Source: Pelotomaculum sp. (lineage in GTDB: Bacteria; Bacillota; Desulfotomaculia; Desulfotomaculales; Pelotomaculaceae). Taken from it: 64,000 bases of DNA. How positions within the stretch are numbered: position 1 is the stretch's first letter; the number at the start of each line of letters is the position of its first letter. A model generated the notes under the pieces. That model searched no databases. It had not been told where the DNA came from and saw only the letters and a list, made by a program, of their open reading frames with translations. Position numbers and translations under genes: made by a program. Shown piece by piece: positions 12,981 to 40,986 of this stretch. The stretch spans positions 28,669 to 92,668 of the forward strand of contig DAOURR010000003.1 of the NCBI GenBank assembly GCA_030627625.1. Reading direction: 5' to 3'.

Positions 12981-14438
12981 CTAACCATTGAACATCTGCA
13001 CAAACATCTTTCCATAGCGGCCCCCGCTTACCACGCCGATGCCTACCCTGGTGTAGTTGGCGTTAAGAATATTAGCGCGGTGCCCCGGTGAATTCATTAA
13101 ATTAGTGTGCGCGCTGTCAACGGTAGGAGCGCCGGCCAGGTTCTCCCCGGCATACCGGTAACTCACCCCGTATTTTTTCATCATATCAAACGGCGAGCCG
13201 TATGTGGGCGAATTATGGTCAAAATACCCCAGGTTAATCATATCCTGCGCTTTAAGCCGGGCCAGCTTAACCAGGTTCAAATCCATCTGCAGGGGCTTTA
13301 AGCCCGCCCTTGCCCGCTCCTGGTTAACCAGGTTCAGCATCTTGCTCTCATCCGCGTTCAGACCGCTGACCGGCTGAGGCTCAGGTTGTGGTTGTGGTTG
13401 TGGCTGCGGCTGCGGCTGTGGCTGTGGCTGCGGCTGCGGCTGCGGCTGTGGCTGTGGCTGCGGCTGCGGCTGCGGCTGCTGAATTTGAGTTTGATTAAGG
13501 GGCTTGATGAACATTTGAACAAACATCTTTCCGTAGCTGCCCCCGCTTACCACACCGATGCCTACCCTGGTATAGCTGGCATTGAGAATATTGGCGCGGT
13601 GCCCCGGTGAATTCATTAAATTGATATGTGCGCTGACGACAGTGGGAGCGCCGGCCAGGTTCTCCCCGGCATAGCTGTAGCTTACTCCGTATTTCTTCAT
13701 CATTTCGAAAGGAGACCCGTACGTGGGCGAATTATGGCTAAAATATCTCAGGTTAATCATGTCCTGCGCTTTCAGACGGGCTAGCTTGACCAAATCCAGA
13801 TCAATCTGCAGGGGGCTTAACCCTGCCTTTGCCCGCTCCTGATTGATCAGTTCCAGCATCTTGCTCTCATCAGCATTCAGACCGCTGACCGGCTGGGGCT
13901 GGGGCTGTGTTTGTGGCTGTGGCTGCGCCGTTCCGGCATTTTGACTGCAGGTGAATATTTGAACAAGAATCTTGTAGGAACCTTTTGTAATTACCCCAAC
14001 ACCAATCCGGTCATATTTTTGACTGAGTATGTTAGACCTGTGACCACTTGACTCCATCAAAGCTTTAAAAGCTGAGCTGACCGAAGGGGCTTTGGCAATG
14101 TTTTCTGCGACGCAACTGTACTGCACCCCGACAACCTTCATCATGTCGGAGGCTGAACCGTAGGTTGGAGAAACATGGCCCAAGTAACCGTTGGACGCCA
14201 TATCCTGTGCTTTGATCCGGGCCAGGCCGGATAATGTTGGGTCAACTACAAGCTGTTTCAGGCCAGCTTCGGCGCGGGCGGAGTTAACCAAATCCGCCAT
14301 CTGAAGTTCGTCAACACTTATGGGCGCCCCAGCTTCCGCCGCGCTTGCCGGTGCTGCTATCCCCAATGAGAACATGATTACAAAAAGGAACAAAATCGAG
14401 ATTACGCTTAATGACAGGCTCCTTGAACGAAACAACAT
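12981..14438 (-). CDS. Secreted protein with three CAP/SCP (YkwD-like) domains joined by (PQ)n linkers
   Basis: Signal peptide ...GIAAPASA. There are three copies of the CAP pattern (..A.DM....Y..H.SPTYGS..DMM...GV.Y....ENIA......A...LM.S.GHR.NIL...Y.R.G.GV). Copies 2 and 3 are nearly identical. Confidence 0.9.
   Translation of the reverse strand: MLFRSRSLSLSVISILFLFVIMFSLGIAAPASAAEAGAPISVDELQMADLVNSARAEAGLKQLVVDPTLSGLARIKAQDMASNGYLGHVSPTYGSASDMMKVVGVQYSCVAENIAKAPSVSSAFKALMESSGHRSNILSQKYDRIGVGVITKGSYKILVQIFTCSQNAGTAQPQPQTQPQPQPVSGLNADESKMLELINQERAKAGLSPLQIDLDLVKLARLKAQDMINLRYFSHNSPTYGSPFEMMKKYGVSYSYAGENLAGAPTVVSAHINLMNSPGHRANILNASYTRVGIGVVSGGSYGKMFVQMFIKPLNQTQIQQPQPQPQPQPQPQPQPQPQPQPQPQPQPQPQPEPQPVSGLNADESKMLNLVNQERARAGLKPLQMDLNLVKLARLKAQDMINLGYFDHNSPTYGSPFDMMKKYGVSYRYAGENLAGAPTVDSAHTNLMNSPGHRANILNANYTRVGIGVVSGGRYGKMFVQMFNG
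13372..13480. repeat. Hexanucleotide microsatellite (CTGYGG)n encoding a (PQ)~17 linker
   Basis: Plus strand has ggctgtggctgtggctgcggctgcgg... over about 105 nt. It translates on the minus strand as QPQPQPQPQ...PEPQP. Confidence 0.95.
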
Positions 14439-14457
14439 TCAATTACCCCTTCCTTTT

Positions 14458-14685
14458 ACACCTCCGGAGTTAGCTGACGGGTTCGGTAAAAGATAACCCT
14501 ACCCGTTCAGTAGTCGGTCGTCGGAAGTCGGAAGTCAGTTTATTTTAGTAGGTATTCATATAGCGATTACCTCTAGACTGACATCTGACATCTGACATCT
14601 GACATCTGAATTGGGATTCACCCCTGAAAACCGGTTCCTCCGTACCCAAACCATATTTTTGGGATTCGGCTGAGATGCAGGATGG
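14458..14685 (-). promoter_or_regulatory. c-di-AMP riboswitch (ydaO-yuaA class) in the 5' leader of the CAP-domain gene
   Basis: Minus strand contains, in order, GCCGAAUCCC, the CCCAAA/UUUGGG hairpin, GUACGGAGGAACC, GGGGUGAAUCCC, a long helix, ACGGGUAGGG and CCGAACCCGUCAGCUAAC. These match the pseudo-symmetric signature blocks I recall for the ydaO aptamer. Confidence 0.75.
14513..14609. repeat. Heptanucleotide-repeat inverted repeat forming the extended riboswitch helix
   Basis: Plus strand: GTCGGTC GTCGGAA GTCGGAA GTCAG, a 39-nt loop, then CT(GACATCT)x4 GA. The arms are complementary, with mismatches or wobbles recurring every 7 nt. Confidence 0.9.
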
Positions 14686-14726
14686 CAAATAAAAAGGCCC
14701 ATACAAAGCAACCCTTGTACAAGCCT

Positions 14727-14755
14727 ACTATACTTACAATGGAGTGTTGTGGCAA
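14727..14755 (-). promoter_or_regulatory. Candidate sigma-A promoter driving the riboswitch leader
   Basis: Minus strand: TTGCCA (14755-14750), 17 nt, TATAGT (14732-14727). Confidence 0.5.
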
Positions 14756-25163: not shown

Positions 25164-25420
25164 AAAAAAAATTAAACCTCACCCCTATCTTTTGTGAGGG
25201 GCGAAGTTTTTAAACTCTCGCGGTACCACCCTTATTTGCCTGCTCCTCGCGAAGCCTGGCCTCTACGGTACAGGGAAGCGCTCCCGATACTGCGGCATGG
25301 TAACGGCGCCCAACCCGGCACGGCTTACGATAAATTTCAGCCGCTCAGCTCCAGAGCCATGTTCGGCCAGCTTTCCCCGGCGGGCTTGCACCTTCCCCCG
25401 CTCTCTGTACGGGTATTATT
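25164..25420 (-). promoter_or_regulatory. T-box leader (Met specifier) with terminator/antiterminator, upstream of metG
   Basis: Minus strand has the AGAGA GA-motif at the stem I base and a specifier loop GAAC-AUG-G (AUG at 25360-25358). The T-box core is AAGGGUGGUACCGCG (25231-25219). The terminator is CCUCAC/GUGAGG followed by UUUAAUUUUUUUU (25164-25202). Confidence 0.85.
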
Positions 25421-25473
25421 TGGCTTACTCTTCTCCTTCATTGCTGTTATCTTGATAGCATAATAACATATAG

Positions 25474-34804: not shown

Positions 34805-34821
34805 TTTGAACCTCCAGTTCT

Positions 34822-34917
34822 GGGACGTGAGATGTGAGAAATGAGACGTGAGATTGAAAGATAGTGCCAAGGGTCAAAGACCATAAAAAATACAGATGTT
34901 CCCACGTCCCACGTCTC
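34822..34917. repeat. Intercistronic hairpin built from heptanucleotide repeats
   Basis: Plus strand: GGGACGT GAGATGT GAGAAAT GAGACGT GAGATTG, then about 41 nt, then GTTCCCAC GTCCCAC GTCTC. The arms are complementary in at least two registers 21 nt apart (three heptads). Confidence 0.85.
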
Positions 34918-34920
34918 AAA

Positions 34921-35586
34921 TCACCAGAACGCTTTCTGCATCATCCTCTGCAATGGGCGAACAGGGTTGCCCATGCAGTCCGCATGACCAATTTTTTTAG
35001 CTATCCCGTCACATACGGCTGTGGCTACTACAGGCAGGCCCAAAATTTTCGCGGCATTCGAGACCGTTCGCGCGCCTTCCTGCACCAAATCAACGGTAGT
35101 TTCTTCCGCCATGTGGGTGTTGTTAATCAGTCCGTTCACCCGTGCCATTTGTTGCACATCTAAAACAATATCCTCTACGGTAGAAGTCCATGGGCGTGAA
35201 CAATTGATAACGGCTATTACCATGAGGTCCTGGTCGGCTGTGGAGCCCTCTACAAGGTTCAGGGTTCTGGCGCCCTCCACTCCGTAGCCGATATCCAGAA
35301 TGATGTCACCGGCGCGCCGCAGCGCCCACCTGGCGGCAGGCTTAATAACCGTGCCTGCTTCACCCAATCCCAGGGTTTCTTCTGTTTTCCAGGCGATAAC
35401 CTCTACACCAAGACGGCTCAGAGCCTTTTGCAGCGGCCGCAGGGTGTAAAATGGCTCAACAAGATCAAGATCCACCAGGGTCACCATTCTGTCCTGGCCG
35501 GCCAGCCCAATGGCGCGGTTCAGGGCATTCTCGCTCTTGCCCGCAGCGTACTCGCCAACATACGCCTCTACAACCCTATCAGTCAT
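34921..35586 (-). CDS. P-loop NTPase-like protein of unknown function
   Basis: Walker-A-like GEYAAGKS near the N-terminus and a hydrophobic strand VTLVDLD (Walker-B-like). No confident family assignment. Confidence 0.55.
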   Translation of the reverse strand: MTDRVVEAYVGEYAAGKSENALNRAIGLAGQDRMVTLVDLDLVEPFYTLRPLQKALSRLGVEVIAWKTEETLGLGEAGTVIKPAARWALRRAGDIILDIGYGVEGARTLNLVEGSTADQDLMVIAVINCSRPWTSTVEDIVLDVQQMARVNGLINNTHMAEETTVDLVQEGARTVSNAAKILGLPVVATAVCDGIAKKIGHADCMGNPVRPLQRMMQKAFW

Positions 35587-38866: not shown

Positions 38867-39135
38867 GGCCGTGCACCTGCCTTCGAATATTAACTTCCGG
38901 GCGGTAAACCCGCAGGTAGCTCAGACCAGGCACCCTCGCGGCACCCGGAGGATTTCCCTTAGTGCTGCTTCCGTCAGGACCTGACACGGTTCAGGAAGCT
39001 CCGTCGCACGAGACCCAATCGTCAACACCCCTTACGGATGCCGGACCCCACAAGCTAAACCCTCGGGCGGGAATTCAACCCCGCTGCAGCGGTTTGCGGG
39101 TACAGGGCACCGCTACCTCCCCGTCTAGCACGGCC
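38867..39135 (-). ncRNA. ffs: Signal recognition particle RNA, long Bacillus type (about 269 nt)
   Basis: Minus strand runs GGCCGUGCUAGACGGGGAGGUAGCGGUGCCCUGUACCCGCAA...GUGUCAGGUCCUGACGGAAGCAGCACUAAGG...GAAGGCAGGUGCACGGCC. It has the domain IV GGAAGCAGC motif, Alu-domain-like ends that pair, and sits upstream of dnaX, as scr does in B. subtilis. Confidence 0.9.
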
Positions 39136-39161: not shown

Positions 39162-39251
39162 TGGCGGAGAGAGTGGGATTCGAACCCACGAGACAGTTAC
39201 CCGTCCACACGCTCTCCAGGCGTGCGCCTTCATCCACTCGGCCATCTCTCC
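39162..39251 (-). tRNA. tRNA-Ser (anticodon GGA) with a long variable arm and encoded CCA
   Basis: Minus strand: GGAGAGAUGGCCGAGUGGAUGAAGGCGCACGCCUGGAGAGCGUGUGGACGGGUAACUGUCUCGUGGGUUCGAAUCCCACUCUCUCCGCCA. Anticodon loop is CUGGAGA. The T-loop (GGUUCGAAUCC) and acceptor stem pair correctly. Confidence 0.93.
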
Positions 39252-40704: not shown

Positions 40705-40986
40705 CTACCGCCTTAACAGGCACAGGTACCTGTAATAAACGTACACAAAGGCCGCGTAGAGAGGTATGGACAGCAGGTACTTGCTTTTGGAAGGTATCCA
40801 CGGGACAGTAAAAAATACCACCCCTAAAACAGTTACCGCCAGCGCCATCAAGCCCCATTTGGTTTTTTCTGACTTATTAATAGCTTTCTCATTTGTTTTG
40901 CTTACGATTATGATTTCCGGCTTTCTCTTTGTCTTATCCTTTATGATATCCGGCTTTCTCTTTGTCTTATCCTTTTTTTTGCTCAC
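40705..40986 (-). CDS. Small membrane protein with a duplicated K/R-rich N-terminal motif
   Basis: GTG start after GGAGAGGG. KKDKTKRKPDII / KDKTKRKPEII tandem repeat, then two TM helices. Confidence 0.5.
   Translation of the reverse strand: MSKKKDKTKRKPDIIKDKTKRKPEIIIVSKTNEKAINKSEKTKWGLMALAVTVLGVVFFTVPWIPSKSKYLLSIPLYAAFVYVYYRYLCLLRR
40916..40975. repeat. Tandem 33-bp duplication inside the small membrane-protein gene
   Basis: tccggctttctctttgtcttatcctttatgata (40916-40948) is repeated at 40949-40975 and then diverges. Confidence 0.9.

What the first reader, a model, noticed from the sequence alone, without database searches (positions are those of the whole stretch)
14458..14755. c-di-AMP (ydaO-class) riboswitch with a hyper-extended heptad-repeat helix, controlling a triple-CAP secreted protein
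The minus-strand leader of the 12981..14438 gene carries signature blocks, in the expected order, that I recall from the B. subtilis ydaO aptamer. They are GCCGAAUCCC, a CCCAAA/UUUGGG hairpin, GUACGGAGGAACC, GGGGUGAAUCCC, then ACGGGUAGGG and CCGAACCCGUCAGCUAAC. B. subtilis has only a tiny hairpin between the GGGGUGAAUCC and GGUAGGG blocks. This leader has a ~97-nt helix there (14513..14609). Its 5' arm is (CAGAUGU)x4 and its 3' arm is GACUUCC GACUUCC GACGACC, so mismatches recur every 7 nt. No U-tract terminator lies between the aptamer and the SD (AAAGGAAGGGG), which suggests translational or Rho-dependent control. A TTGCCA-17-TATAGT promoter lies about 35 nt upstream of the aptamer. A cell-wall/sporulation-type CAP protein would be a plausible c-di-AMP regulon member. 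The repeat-built helix is something I have not seen described for this class.
Basis: partly seen in the sequence, partly recalled or inferred. Interest (0 to 1): 0.7.

Follow-up and report, generated by a model that had tools for sequence, protein, structure and literature searches.

The report
c-di-AMP riboswitch with heptad-repeat arm
This is a genuine c-di-AMP-sensing riboswitch in front of a sporulation-type secreted protein gene, and one of its outer hairpins has grown to about 114 bases through tandem 7-base repeats on both arms. That repeat habit is shared by related Pelotomaculum riboswitches and also occurs outside riboswitches in the same genome.

Summary
Rfam RF00379 (c-di-AMP/ydaO) matches window 14681..14444 (-) full length at 69.6 bits, against a gathering score of 38. 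About 105 extra nucleotides sit in one hairpin. That hairpin (14615..14502) has (CAGAUGU)x4.6 on its 5' arm and GACUUCC GACUUCC GACGACC GACUACU on its 3' arm, so each heptad gives about 5 pairs and 2 mismatches.

The gene downstream encodes a signal-peptide protein with three YkwD/CAP domains. There is no terminator. The aptamer's pseudoknot and P1 abut the Shine-Dalgarno sequence, so a translational OFF switch is the likely mechanism (inferred).

Ten orthologous leaders in Pelotomaculum-clade genomes carry the riboswitch, with 27-208 nt at the same site. Most are again 7-periodic with species-specific units. Two riboswitches with the same heptad helix sit in front of TrkH/KtrB-type sequence; the downstream gene of a third is not on the stored locus.

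A second heptad hairpin lies at window 34817..34931 in an unrelated intergenic gap and is absent at that site in three relatives. I therefore read the helix mainly as a lineage-specific heptanucleotide-repeat expansion tolerated in a permissive peripheral hairpin. A conserved NAG phase and a recurring A·C mismatch keep a functional role open. It is a known riboswitch class with an unusual variant, of moderate interest.

The parts
14727..14755 (-). Sigma-70-like promoter: TTGCCA (14755-14750), 17-nt spacer, TATAGT (14732-14727).
   Evidence: Consensus scan, 10 of 12 matches. The block TTAAATTACCGGCTTTGCCA-N17/18-TATAnT is conserved in 9 orthologous leaders, including the riboswitch-less P. thermopropionicum.
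14685..14726 (-). Conserved leader hairpin (AGGCUUGUACAAG...UUGUAUGGGCCU, 14726-14695) followed by a U-rich run. It starts directly after the -10 box. Its role is unknown.
   Evidence: Terminator-like hit with 14 pairs. The sequence is conserved in orthologs and present where no riboswitch exists.
14444..14681 (-). c-di-AMP riboswitch aptamer (RF00379), full length.
   Evidence: 69.6 bits against a gathering score of 38. The helices are supported on 13 related sequences: 93.7% of cells paired, 7 of 21 pairs with compensatory changes, slid controls at most 54%.
14645..14663 (-). P2 hairpin (CCCAAA...UUUGGG) of the 5' half.
   Evidence: Read. Pairs covary (CG to UA), helix 2.
14502..14615 (-). 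Extended hairpin of the 3' half (CCC...GGG closing pairs). It is the counterpart of P2 by sequence symmetry (GAAUCCC...GGGUA). It is 114 nt here, against a 4-bp stem and 7-8-nt loop in the Rfam consensus.
   Evidence: -36.4 kcal/mol. The same site holds 27-208 nt in the relatives.
14578..14608 (-). 5' arm heptad array: CAGAUGU x4, then CAG.
   Evidence: Tandem Repeats Finder: period 7, 4.6 copies, 100% matches. Lag-7 identity 0.93.
14509..14536 (-). 3' arm heptad array: GACUUCC GACUUCC GACGACC GACUACU.
   Evidence: Tandem Repeats Finder: period 7, 3.6 copies, 83% matches. Lag-7 identity 0.71. It pairs in register with the 5' arm.
14486..14493 (-). Pseudoknot 5' strand, in the loop of the last hairpin (UCUUUUAC).
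   Evidence: Complementary to 14459-14452 (read). Loop-tail complementarity of 6-11 bp is present in all 13 related leaders, with covariation in L082 and L083. The homologous pseudoknot exists in the crystallised RNA (sequence and text in PMC5393176).
14452..14462 (-). P1 3' strand (GGUG, 14462-14459) and pseudoknot 3' strand (GUAAAAGG, 14459-14452).
14446..14456 (-). Shine-Dalgarno region AAAGGAAGGGG, 7 nt before the AUG (14438-14436). It overlaps the pseudoknot 3' strand.
   Evidence: Read. Conserved as AAAGAAAGGGG in orthologs.
12981..14438 (-). Regulated gene: a 485-aa protein with an N-terminal signal-peptide-like segment, three YkwD/CAP domains and (QP)n linkers.
   Evidence: Pfam CAP x3. 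TIGR02909 spore_YkwD x3, 512.8 bits. Conserved synteny with YabG, a NAL1-like protease and SipL/LysM genes.
34817..34931 (.). Second heptad-repeat hairpin, not in a riboswitch. Plus strand: GGGACGT GAGATGT GAGAAAT GAGACGT GAGATTG ... CCCACGT CCCACGT CTCAAAT.
   Evidence: Tandem Repeats Finder period-7 rows at 34827-34854 and 34900-34915. Folds at -39.3 (minus strand) and -36.5 (plus strand) kcal/mol. Absent at the orthologous site in three relatives.

Best explanation
The leader of the triple-YkwD/CAP gene is a c-di-AMP riboswitch of the ydaO/kimA class, transcribed from a conserved sigma-70-like promoter.

It has no terminator. The 3' strand of P1 and the 3' strand of the aptamer's pseudoknot (GUAAAAGG) run straight into the Shine-Dalgarno sequence. 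Ligand binding should therefore lock the pseudoknot and P1 and hinder ribosome access, which makes it a translational OFF switch. This step is inferred, not shown.

The long helix is an expansion of the peripheral hairpin of the 3' half. It was built by tandem duplication of 7-nt units on both arms, as in heptanucleotide simple-sequence repeats. The aptamer tolerates it because this hairpin points away from the conserved core. The same repeat habit is active elsewhere in this lineage's intergenic DNA, so the helix most likely has no direct part in ligand sensing. Selection appears to keep the two arms in register and imperfectly paired.
For: Class membership: RF00379 scores 69.6 bits full length. 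Helices P1-P6 are supported by covariation on 13 relatives. The pseudoknot is conserved and covaries, and it is homologous to the one in the crystallised RNA.

OFF-switch behaviour of the class is documented (PMC6488665; PMC5575661). A terminator-less, probably translational member is documented (PMC9960051). No terminator lies here, and the Shine-Dalgarno sequence abuts the pseudoknot in all CAP leaders.

Expansion segment: the same hairpin holds 27, 52, 79, 81, 89, 96, 112, 115, 122, 142 and 208 nt in orthologous leaders, while the core is nearly invariant. Mean lag-7 identity is 0.56 (5' arms) and 0.51 (3' arms), against 0.19-0.30 at other lags. Units are uniform within a species but differ between species: CAGAUGU, GAGACGU, GAGAAGU, CAGAAGU, CGGAAGC. 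That is the signature of ongoing duplication and turnover. Heptad position 1 covaries (C-G, G-C, U-A).

Lineage-wide habit: heptad arrays or hairpins occur outside riboswitches at window 34817-34931, L098:2283-2345 and L083:2758-2795. The window copy is missing at the orthologous site of three relatives.

Heptanucleotide repeats are the commonest long simple-sequence repeats in many bacteria and are sporadic across lineages (Mrazek 2007, as summarised in PMC4679880). The twin hairpin P2 accepts foreign hairpins without disturbing the fold (bioRxiv 10.1101/2020.05.05.078014).
Against: No ligand binding or regulation was measured.

The helix is not a random expansion. A and G at heptad positions 2-3 (NAG) are kept across species. 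The A usually faces a C (31 A·C against 6 C·A among aligned cells) instead of the easily reached A-U. Positions 4 and 5 tend to carry a second mismatch in each heptad. The antisense strand folds better in 10 of 14 inserts. Neutral slippage with selection for pairing does not predict these regularities.

In L089 the heptads lie outside the hairpin.

I could not measure how common long inserts at this site are across the whole family. Tolerance of this particular hairpin is inferred from P2 and from the Rfam consensus, not from a structure.
Confidence: 0.6

Rival explanations
1. The 5' arm is a protein-binding array. NAG triplets spaced every 7 nt would be read by an oligomeric RNA-binding protein of the HutP, TRAP or cold-shock-protein kind. 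The 3' arm would mask the array. Protein binding would open the helix and add a second input to the riboswitch, or control RNA stability.
For: HutP recognises three XAG motifs 7 nt apart. It reads A and G specifically and ignores the spacers (PMC2425495). CspB binds heptamer direct repeats, one protein per heptamer (PMC4679880).

NAG is kept in phase in 2-5 consecutive heptads in the window, L002, L003, L004, L082, L083, L084 and L090, while the other positions drift. The A is usually left unpaired opposite C. Arrays also occur in a leader outside the hairpin (L089) and inside a terminator-like hairpin (L098).
Against: No candidate protein was identified. The two small conserved upstream ORFs have no family match and are present in genomes without the riboswitch.

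The 3' arms are as periodic as the 5' arms. The window's second hairpin has its NAG array on the non-coding strand. L005 and L007 mostly have CGG instead of NAG. The array is predicted to be base-paired, whereas the HutP site I is single-stranded.
Confidence: 0.15
2. The helix is a copy of a dispersed, hairpin-forming repeat element (REP- or MITE-like) that inserted into the loop of the riboswitch hairpin. It was then inherited by orthologs and paralogs, so it did not grow in place.
For: A very similar hairpin (GAGACGT/CCCACGT units) lies in an unrelated intergenic gap of the same window, 20 kb away. That gap is only 8-35 nt in three relatives, so the hairpin is an insertion there.

The conserved mismatch and strand asymmetry would fit recognition as a single-stranded DNA hairpin. 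All riboswitch copies share one orientation.
Against: Only two hairpins were found in 64 kb, and a handful in about 157 kb of clade DNA. I saw no terminal inverted repeats or target duplications beyond the heptads.

The basal heptad is continuous with the aptamer stem, and orthologs form a graded series from 2 to 5 or more units, as expected for growth in place. The base of the 34.8-kb hairpin pairs with the end of the upstream coding sequence, which looks locally built. No transposase was linked to it.
Confidence: 0.15
3. The mismatched helix is a tuned conditional element. The periodic A·C oppositions (possible protonated A+·C wobbles) and the second mismatch in each heptad would keep a long duplex marginal. 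Its formation would then depend on pH or temperature. Alternatively, the mismatches let it escape RNase III, or it delays transcription of the 3' half. Any of these would modulate aptamer folding or mRNA life.
For: A·C is the commonest non-standard opposition, and the A is nearly always on the 5' arm, flanked by G-C pairs. In L004, L082 and L084 the heptads would be fully paired if A·C counted as a pair. About two mismatches per heptad are kept even when their positions change (A·A with C-G, against A-U with U·U or A·C). A heptamer repeat in a 5' UTR that acts through RNA structure and RNase III is documented in Haemophilus (PMC12721329; title and abstract seen).
Against: This is purely inferential, because no energy model or experiment here treats A+·C. 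The length varies 8-fold among orthologs, which argues against a tuned device. L006, L008 and L089 lack the pattern yet keep the riboswitch.
Confidence: 0.1

Closest known systems
ydaO/kimA-class c-di-AMP riboswitch (Rfam RF00379), e.g. B. subtilis kimA and ktrAB, B. thuringiensis kdpFABC, and the crystallised Thermoanaerobacter RNA
   Same: It is a full-length match with the conserved core, helices and pseudoknot. The class is an OFF switch tied to K+ transport, cell wall and sporulation genes. Related heptad-bearing copies in L082 and L083 sit in front of TrkH/KtrB-type sequence.
   Different: The known examples cited use an intrinsic terminator, and there is none here. The crystallised RNA has a 7-bp stem with a tetraloop at this hairpin (sequence), and the Rfam consensus has a 4-bp stem and short loop. 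Here the hairpin is 114 nt and built of heptad repeats.
Corynebacterium glutamicum nlpC c-di-AMP riboswitch (PMC9960051)
   Same: It lacks a terminator, lies in front of a secreted cell-envelope protein gene, and is proposed to act on translation through pairing with the ribosome-binding site.
   Different: It comes from a different phylum and a different gene family. No repeat-built helix is reported. Its mechanism is also only proposed.
Bacterial heptanucleotide simple-sequence repeats, e.g. TAACTGA repeats of Beggiatoaceae and cyanobacteria (PMC4679880)
   Same: These are tandem 7-nt units in intergenic or 5' UTR DNA, restricted to particular lineages, with variable copy number. Slippage is the proposed origin, and RNA-binding proteins are the proposed readers.
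   Different: Those are almost all direct repeats without a partner array. Here the arrays come as two complementary arrays that form a hairpin. One such hairpin is embedded in register in a riboswitch stem.
HutP binding sites in the B. subtilis hut leader (PMC2425495)
   Same: XAG triplets with a 7-nt period, three or more in a row, associated with an RNA hairpin.
   Different: HutP sites flank a terminator and site I is single-stranded. Here the array is one arm of a long helix inside an aptamer. No hutP gene was looked for or found.

Membership tests
c-di-AMP riboswitch (RF00379, ydaO/kimA class) | Covariance-model score at or above the curated gathering score, over the full model. | tested here: met
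   69.6 bits against 38, model positions 1-134 of 134, E 4.5e-14.
c-di-AMP riboswitch (RF00379, ydaO/kimA class) | Conserved nested helices (P1, P2, P3, the central helix and the two 3'-half hairpins) supported by covariation. | tested here: met
   On 13 related leaders, 93.7% of cells are paired and 7 of 21 pairs show compensatory changes. Covariation score is 0.268 against 0.131 in shuffles (0 of 500 reach it). Slid controls pair at most 54%. The sequences are related, so the shuffle control is generous.
c-di-AMP riboswitch (RF00379, ydaO/kimA class) | Pseudoknot between the loop of the last hairpin and the 3' tail. | tested here: met
   UCUUUUAC (14493-14486) pairs with GUAAAAGG (14459-14452). 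Complementarity of 6-11 bp is found in all 13 leaders and covaries in L082 and L083. The homologous CUCCUUC/GAAGGAG pairing is in the crystallised sequence.
c-di-AMP riboswitch (RF00379, ydaO/kimA class) | Binds two c-di-AMP molecules and changes expression in response. | not testable with these tools
   This needs in-line probing or ITC and reporter assays.
c-di-AMP riboswitch (RF00379, ydaO/kimA class) | Expression platform that couples the aptamer to the gene. | tested here: inconclusive
   There is no terminator. The Shine-Dalgarno sequence abuts or overlaps the pseudoknot and P1 3' strands. Occlusion is inferred, not shown.
Heptanucleotide simple-sequence repeat | Three or more tandem copies of a 7-nt unit, more than chance gives. 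| tested here: met
   Tandem Repeats Finder: 4.6 copies at 100% and 3.6 copies at 83%. Shuffles give 0.25 hits against 3 observed. A lag-7 peak appears in most relatives.
Heptanucleotide simple-sequence repeat | Copy number varies between close relatives. | tested here: inconclusive
   Copy number and unit sequence differ between species. No strain-level relatives were available: the closest protein is 69% identical, and the only other contig is identical.
HutP-type XAG-N4 protein-binding site | Three or more XAG triplets at 7-nt spacing. | tested here: met
   Five CAG triplets in phase at 14608-14578.
HutP-type XAG-N4 protein-binding site | A cognate hutP-like gene in the genome, and an accessible (unpaired) first site. 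| not tested
   No genome-wide protein search of the clade was possible. The array is predicted to be paired.
REP/MITE-like dispersed hairpin element | Many dispersed copies with defined ends (terminal repeats or target duplications). | tested here: inconclusive
   There are two hairpins in 64 kb and a few more arrays in about 157 kb of clade DNA. One is an insertion relative to relatives. No defined ends were seen.

The most novel reading that the evidence does not exclude
The heptad-repeat hairpin is a functional RNA module of the Pelotomaculum lineage. It would be a phased NAG array held half-open by conserved A·C oppositions and read by an oligomeric RNA-binding protein. Placed inside a c-di-AMP aptamer, it would give a riboswitch with a second, protein-mediated input. 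The same module would be reused next to ribosome-binding sites and terminators of other genes.
Probability: 0.12. Interest if true: 0.8.

Novelty: new variant of a known kind. Interest (0 to 1): 0.42.

Why it matters
The riboswitch itself adds one more member to a well-known class. It also shows a recent recruitment. The aptamer sits between a conserved promoter with its leader hairpin and the ribosome-binding site of a sporulation-type YkwD gene, in only part of the Pelotomaculum clade.

The unusual part is the helix. It shows that a peripheral stem of a complex aptamer can take in more than 100 nt of tandem repeats on both arms and keep them in register across species. That is useful for engineering, as a natural grafting site. 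It is also a clean natural case of paired simple-sequence-repeat evolution in a structured RNA. If the conserved NAG phase and the A·C oppositions turn out to be read by a protein, or to act as a conditional helix, this would be a new way of adding an input to a riboswitch.

Tried and rejected
1. 3' arm as an anti-Shine-Dalgarno sequence. CUUCC x2 in the window matches the GGAAG of the ribosome-binding site, and CCUCC occurs in L004 and L082. However, L002, L003 and L083 (CACGACC / GACGACC units) have no such match. Rejected as not conserved.

2. 5' flank as an anti-Shine-Dalgarno sequence or extended P1. The minimum-free-energy fold pairs CCAUCCUGCAUCUC with the Shine-Dalgarno region, but the flank is not conserved in orthologs. 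Not pursued.

3. Riboswitch-CAP linkage as a general rule. No RF00379 hit was found in the 51 other CAP loci scanned (L009, L011-L061, L085-L087, L091-L093), nor by eye in P. thermopropionicum. L062-L081 and L088 were not scanned. The linkage therefore looks clade-specific.

4. DNA-level operator made of 7-bp repeats, as for omega-protein heptads on pSM19035 (title seen). The arrays are in register with an RNA stem and separated by about 40 nt, so I did not favour this.

5. Metagenome scan for GGGGTGAATC-N4-8-(AGANGTN)x2. It gave only 3 loci. These were useful but too few for statistics.

6. Viral-contig scan for (AGACGTN)x3. It gave 9 loci of mixed nature, about what chance plus ordinary tandem repeats would give. 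One is a heptad hairpin. Not informative on function.

7. L011 array (GAGAATT...). It has no partner arm. Dismissed.

8. Strain-level copy-number comparison. No close relatives exist in the collections, and L001 is identical to the window.

9. The primary ydaO papers (Block 2010, Nelson 2013, Gao & Serganov 2014, Ren & Patel 2014, Jones & Ferré-D'Amaré 2014) are not held. Helix numbering and any published remark on variable stems could not be checked.

Full report
**What is there**

On the minus strand, 14681..14444 matches the Rfam c-di-AMP riboswitch model RF00379 over its whole length. The score is 69.6 bits against a gathering score of 38, with E 4.5e-14.

The alignment places 105 extra nucleotides inside one hairpin, the one between GGGGUGAAUCCC and GGGUAGGG. 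The model consensus has a 4-bp stem and a short loop there. By sequence this hairpin is the 3'-half twin of P2 (GAAUCCC...GGGUA occurs twice). I could not check its published number because the primary papers are not held.

**The helix**

The hairpin spans 14615..14502. Tandem Repeats Finder reports a period-7 array at 14578-14609 (4.6 copies, 100% matches) and a second at 14512-14536 (3.6 copies, 83%).

The 5' arm reads CAGAUGU four times and then CAG. The 3' arm reads GACUUCC GACUUCC GACGACC GACUACU.

The insert folds into a single long imperfect helix: -27.9 kcal/mol, z -3.68, with none of 200 shuffles as stable. With its closing pairs it reaches -36.4 kcal/mol.

**Surroundings**

The ORF 12981..14438 (-) begins with a signal-peptide-like segment. 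It carries three CAP domains that NCBIfam places in the sporulation-associated YkwD family (TIGR02909, three stretches, 512.8 bits).

Its neighbours are a SipL/SPOCS-LysM protein, a NAL1-like serine protease and YabG. This is a spore-envelope neighbourhood, and it is conserved across Desulfotomaculales.

The TTGCCA-17-TATAGT promoter at 14755..14727 is part of a block conserved in nine orthologous leaders: TTAAATTACCGGCTTTGCCA-N17/18-TATAnT-AGGCTTGTACAAG. Directly after the -10 box comes a conserved hairpin plus a U run (14726..14685). This element is also present in P. thermopropionicum, where no riboswitch follows and the ribosome-binding site comes next. The aptamer therefore seems to have been inserted between an older leader and the ribosome-binding site.

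**Relatives**

The best protein match is Pelotomaculum propionicicum at 69% identity. Ten orthologous CAP leaders carry RF00379 at 70-88 bits: L002-L008, L010, L089 and L090.

The 51 other CAP loci scanned do not carry it. These include Bacillus, Sporolactobacillus, Desulfoscipio, Desulfallas and Desulfofundulus. L062-L081 were not scanned.

In the ten leaders the same hairpin holds 27 to 208 nt, while the aptamer core is almost invariant.

Most inserts are again 7-periodic on both arms. Mean lag-7 identity is 0.56 and 0.51, against 0.19-0.30 at other lags. The units are species-specific:
- GAGACGU with CACGACC in L002
- CAGACGU with GACGACC in L003
- GAGAAGU with CCUCCCA in L004
- CAGAAGU and similar in L090
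- CGGAAGC in L005

L006, L008 and L089 lack the pattern.

A metagenome scan for the aptamer block followed by two AGANGU heptads gave three further loci. Two are full riboswitches at 97 and 93 bits. L083 has an intrinsic terminator and is followed by a TrkH/KtrB gene. L082 is followed by an open frame whose sequence resembles the C-terminal part of such a transporter, though it was not scanned against Pfam. The third, L084, is cut by the end of the stored locus. The heptad helix is therefore a feature of a small group of c-di-AMP riboswitches, not of this gene.

**Regularities**

Across species, heptad position 1 covaries (C-G, G-C, U-A). Positions 3, 6 and 7 are almost always G-C, G-C and U-A.

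Position 2 is A on the 5' arm and usually C on the 3' arm. Either position 4 or position 5 tends to be mismatched as well.

Among aligned cells, A·C is the commonest non-standard opposition: 31 cells, against 6 C·A and 23 G·U or U·G. The antisense strand folds better in 10 of 14 inserts. Simple slippage plus selection for pairing does not predict this.

**Not only in riboswitches**

A scan of all DNA in hand found a second heptad hairpin at window 34817..34931. On the plus strand it reads GGGACGT GAGATGT GAGAAAT GAGACGT GAGATTG, then about 45 nt, then CCCACGT CCCACGT CTCAAAT. It folds on either strand.

It lies between a 221-aa ORF and the alpha subunit of a 2-oxoacid:ferredoxin oxidoreductase. 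In three relatives that gap is only 18, 8 and 35 nt, so the hairpin is an insertion there.

Further arrays lie at three sites:
- L098:2283-2345, inside a terminator-like hairpin.
- L083:2758-2795.
- The L089 leader, just upstream of the aptamer.

In about 469 kb of non-clade DNA the same scan gave only AT-rich or dissimilar hits.

Heptanucleotide repeats are a known, sporadically distributed kind of bacterial simple-sequence repeat. Polymerase slippage and RNA-binding proteins have been proposed as their cause and their reader (PMC4679880).

**Mechanism**

The class is documented as an OFF switch. A terminator-less, probably translational member is also documented.

Here no terminator exists. 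The pseudoknot between the last hairpin loop (UCUUUUAC, 14493-14486) and the 3' tail (GUAAAAGG, 14459-14452) is conserved. It covaries in 13 leaders and corresponds to the pseudoknot of the crystallised RNA.

Its 3' strand and the P1 3' strand run into the Shine-Dalgarno sequence (14456-14446). An alternative 9-bp register covers it entirely.

I therefore propose ligand-stabilised occlusion of the ribosome-binding site. That step is inference. For the helix, I propose tolerated, lineage-specific repeat expansion in a permissive hairpin. Two points support the idea that it is permissive: the 8-fold length range in orthologs, and the fact that the twin hairpin P2 accepts grafts.

**Rivals**

Three other readings remain open:
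- A phased NAG array read by a HutP-like or Csp-like protein. The geometry matches HutP sites.
- An inserted dispersed hairpin element.
- A conditional helix tuned by A·C oppositions.

None can be excluded with the data at hand. Each is given above with its evidence and the result that would refute it.

**Verdict**

The finding is correct as an observation and in its class assignment. The riboswitch is ordinary. The heptad-built arm is an unusual variant that I could not find described. It belongs to a wider repeat habit of this lineage, which lowers the odds that it is a riboswitch-specific device. Interest is moderate.

Noticed in passing
window 34817-34931: A second heptad-repeat hairpin (GAGAYGT-type units paired with CCCACGT units) lies between a 221-aa ORF and a 2-oxoacid:ferredoxin oxidoreductase alpha-subunit gene, about 10 nt upstream of that gene's GGAGG. 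It is absent at the orthologous site of three Pelotomaculum relatives.
   Followed up: partly
window 14685-14726, and orthologous leaders (L003, L005, L006, L007, L010, L089, L090, L099): A conserved hairpin with a U run starts right after the -10 box of the CAP gene promoter and contains the palindrome CTTGTACAAG. It is present even where no riboswitch follows. It could be a 5' stabiliser, an attenuator or an operator.
   Followed up: partly
L099 and L100 (P. thermopropionicum-type contigs); L085-L087 and L091-L093: The orthologous YkwD/CAP gene has no c-di-AMP riboswitch in P. thermopropionicum, Desulfoscipio, Desulfallas, Desulfofundulus or a Clostridia MAG. The riboswitch is therefore a recent acquisition in part of the Pelotomaculum clade.
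   Followed up: partly
L089:1253-1276: In P. terephthalicicum the heptads (GACGTCA x3) lie in the leader just upstream of the aptamer instead of inside the hairpin.
   Followed up: no
L098:2283-2345 and L083:2758-2795: Further heptad arrays occur outside riboswitches. CAGGAGT/CAGAATT x5 lies within a terminator-like hairpin after the POR alpha gene of P. isophthalicicum. GACGTTC GACGTTC GACGACT GACGACC lies in an intergenic gap of a metagenome contig.
   Followed up: no
L106:549-640 (IMG/VR contig): A phage-assigned contig carries a compact heptad-repeat hairpin: AAGACGT GAGACGT AAGACGT TAGAAGT GAGACGT paired with ACGTCTT ACATCTT ACATCTC CCGTCTC.
   Followed up: no
window 13371-13479 and 13891-13925: Hexanucleotide repeats (GGCTGY on the plus strand) encode the (QP)n linkers between the three CAP domains.
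   Followed up: no
window 25194-25450 (-), 38869-39133 (-), 39165-39251 (-): A T-box leader (113 bits), a large bacterial SRP RNA (210 bits) and a tRNA, all found by Rfam.
   Followed up: no
L008:3953-5760 (-): Group II intron domains lie downstream of the CAP gene in one relative.
   Followed up: no
window 40908-40975: A 33-bp tandem repeat, 2.1 copies, 97% identical.
   Followed up: no
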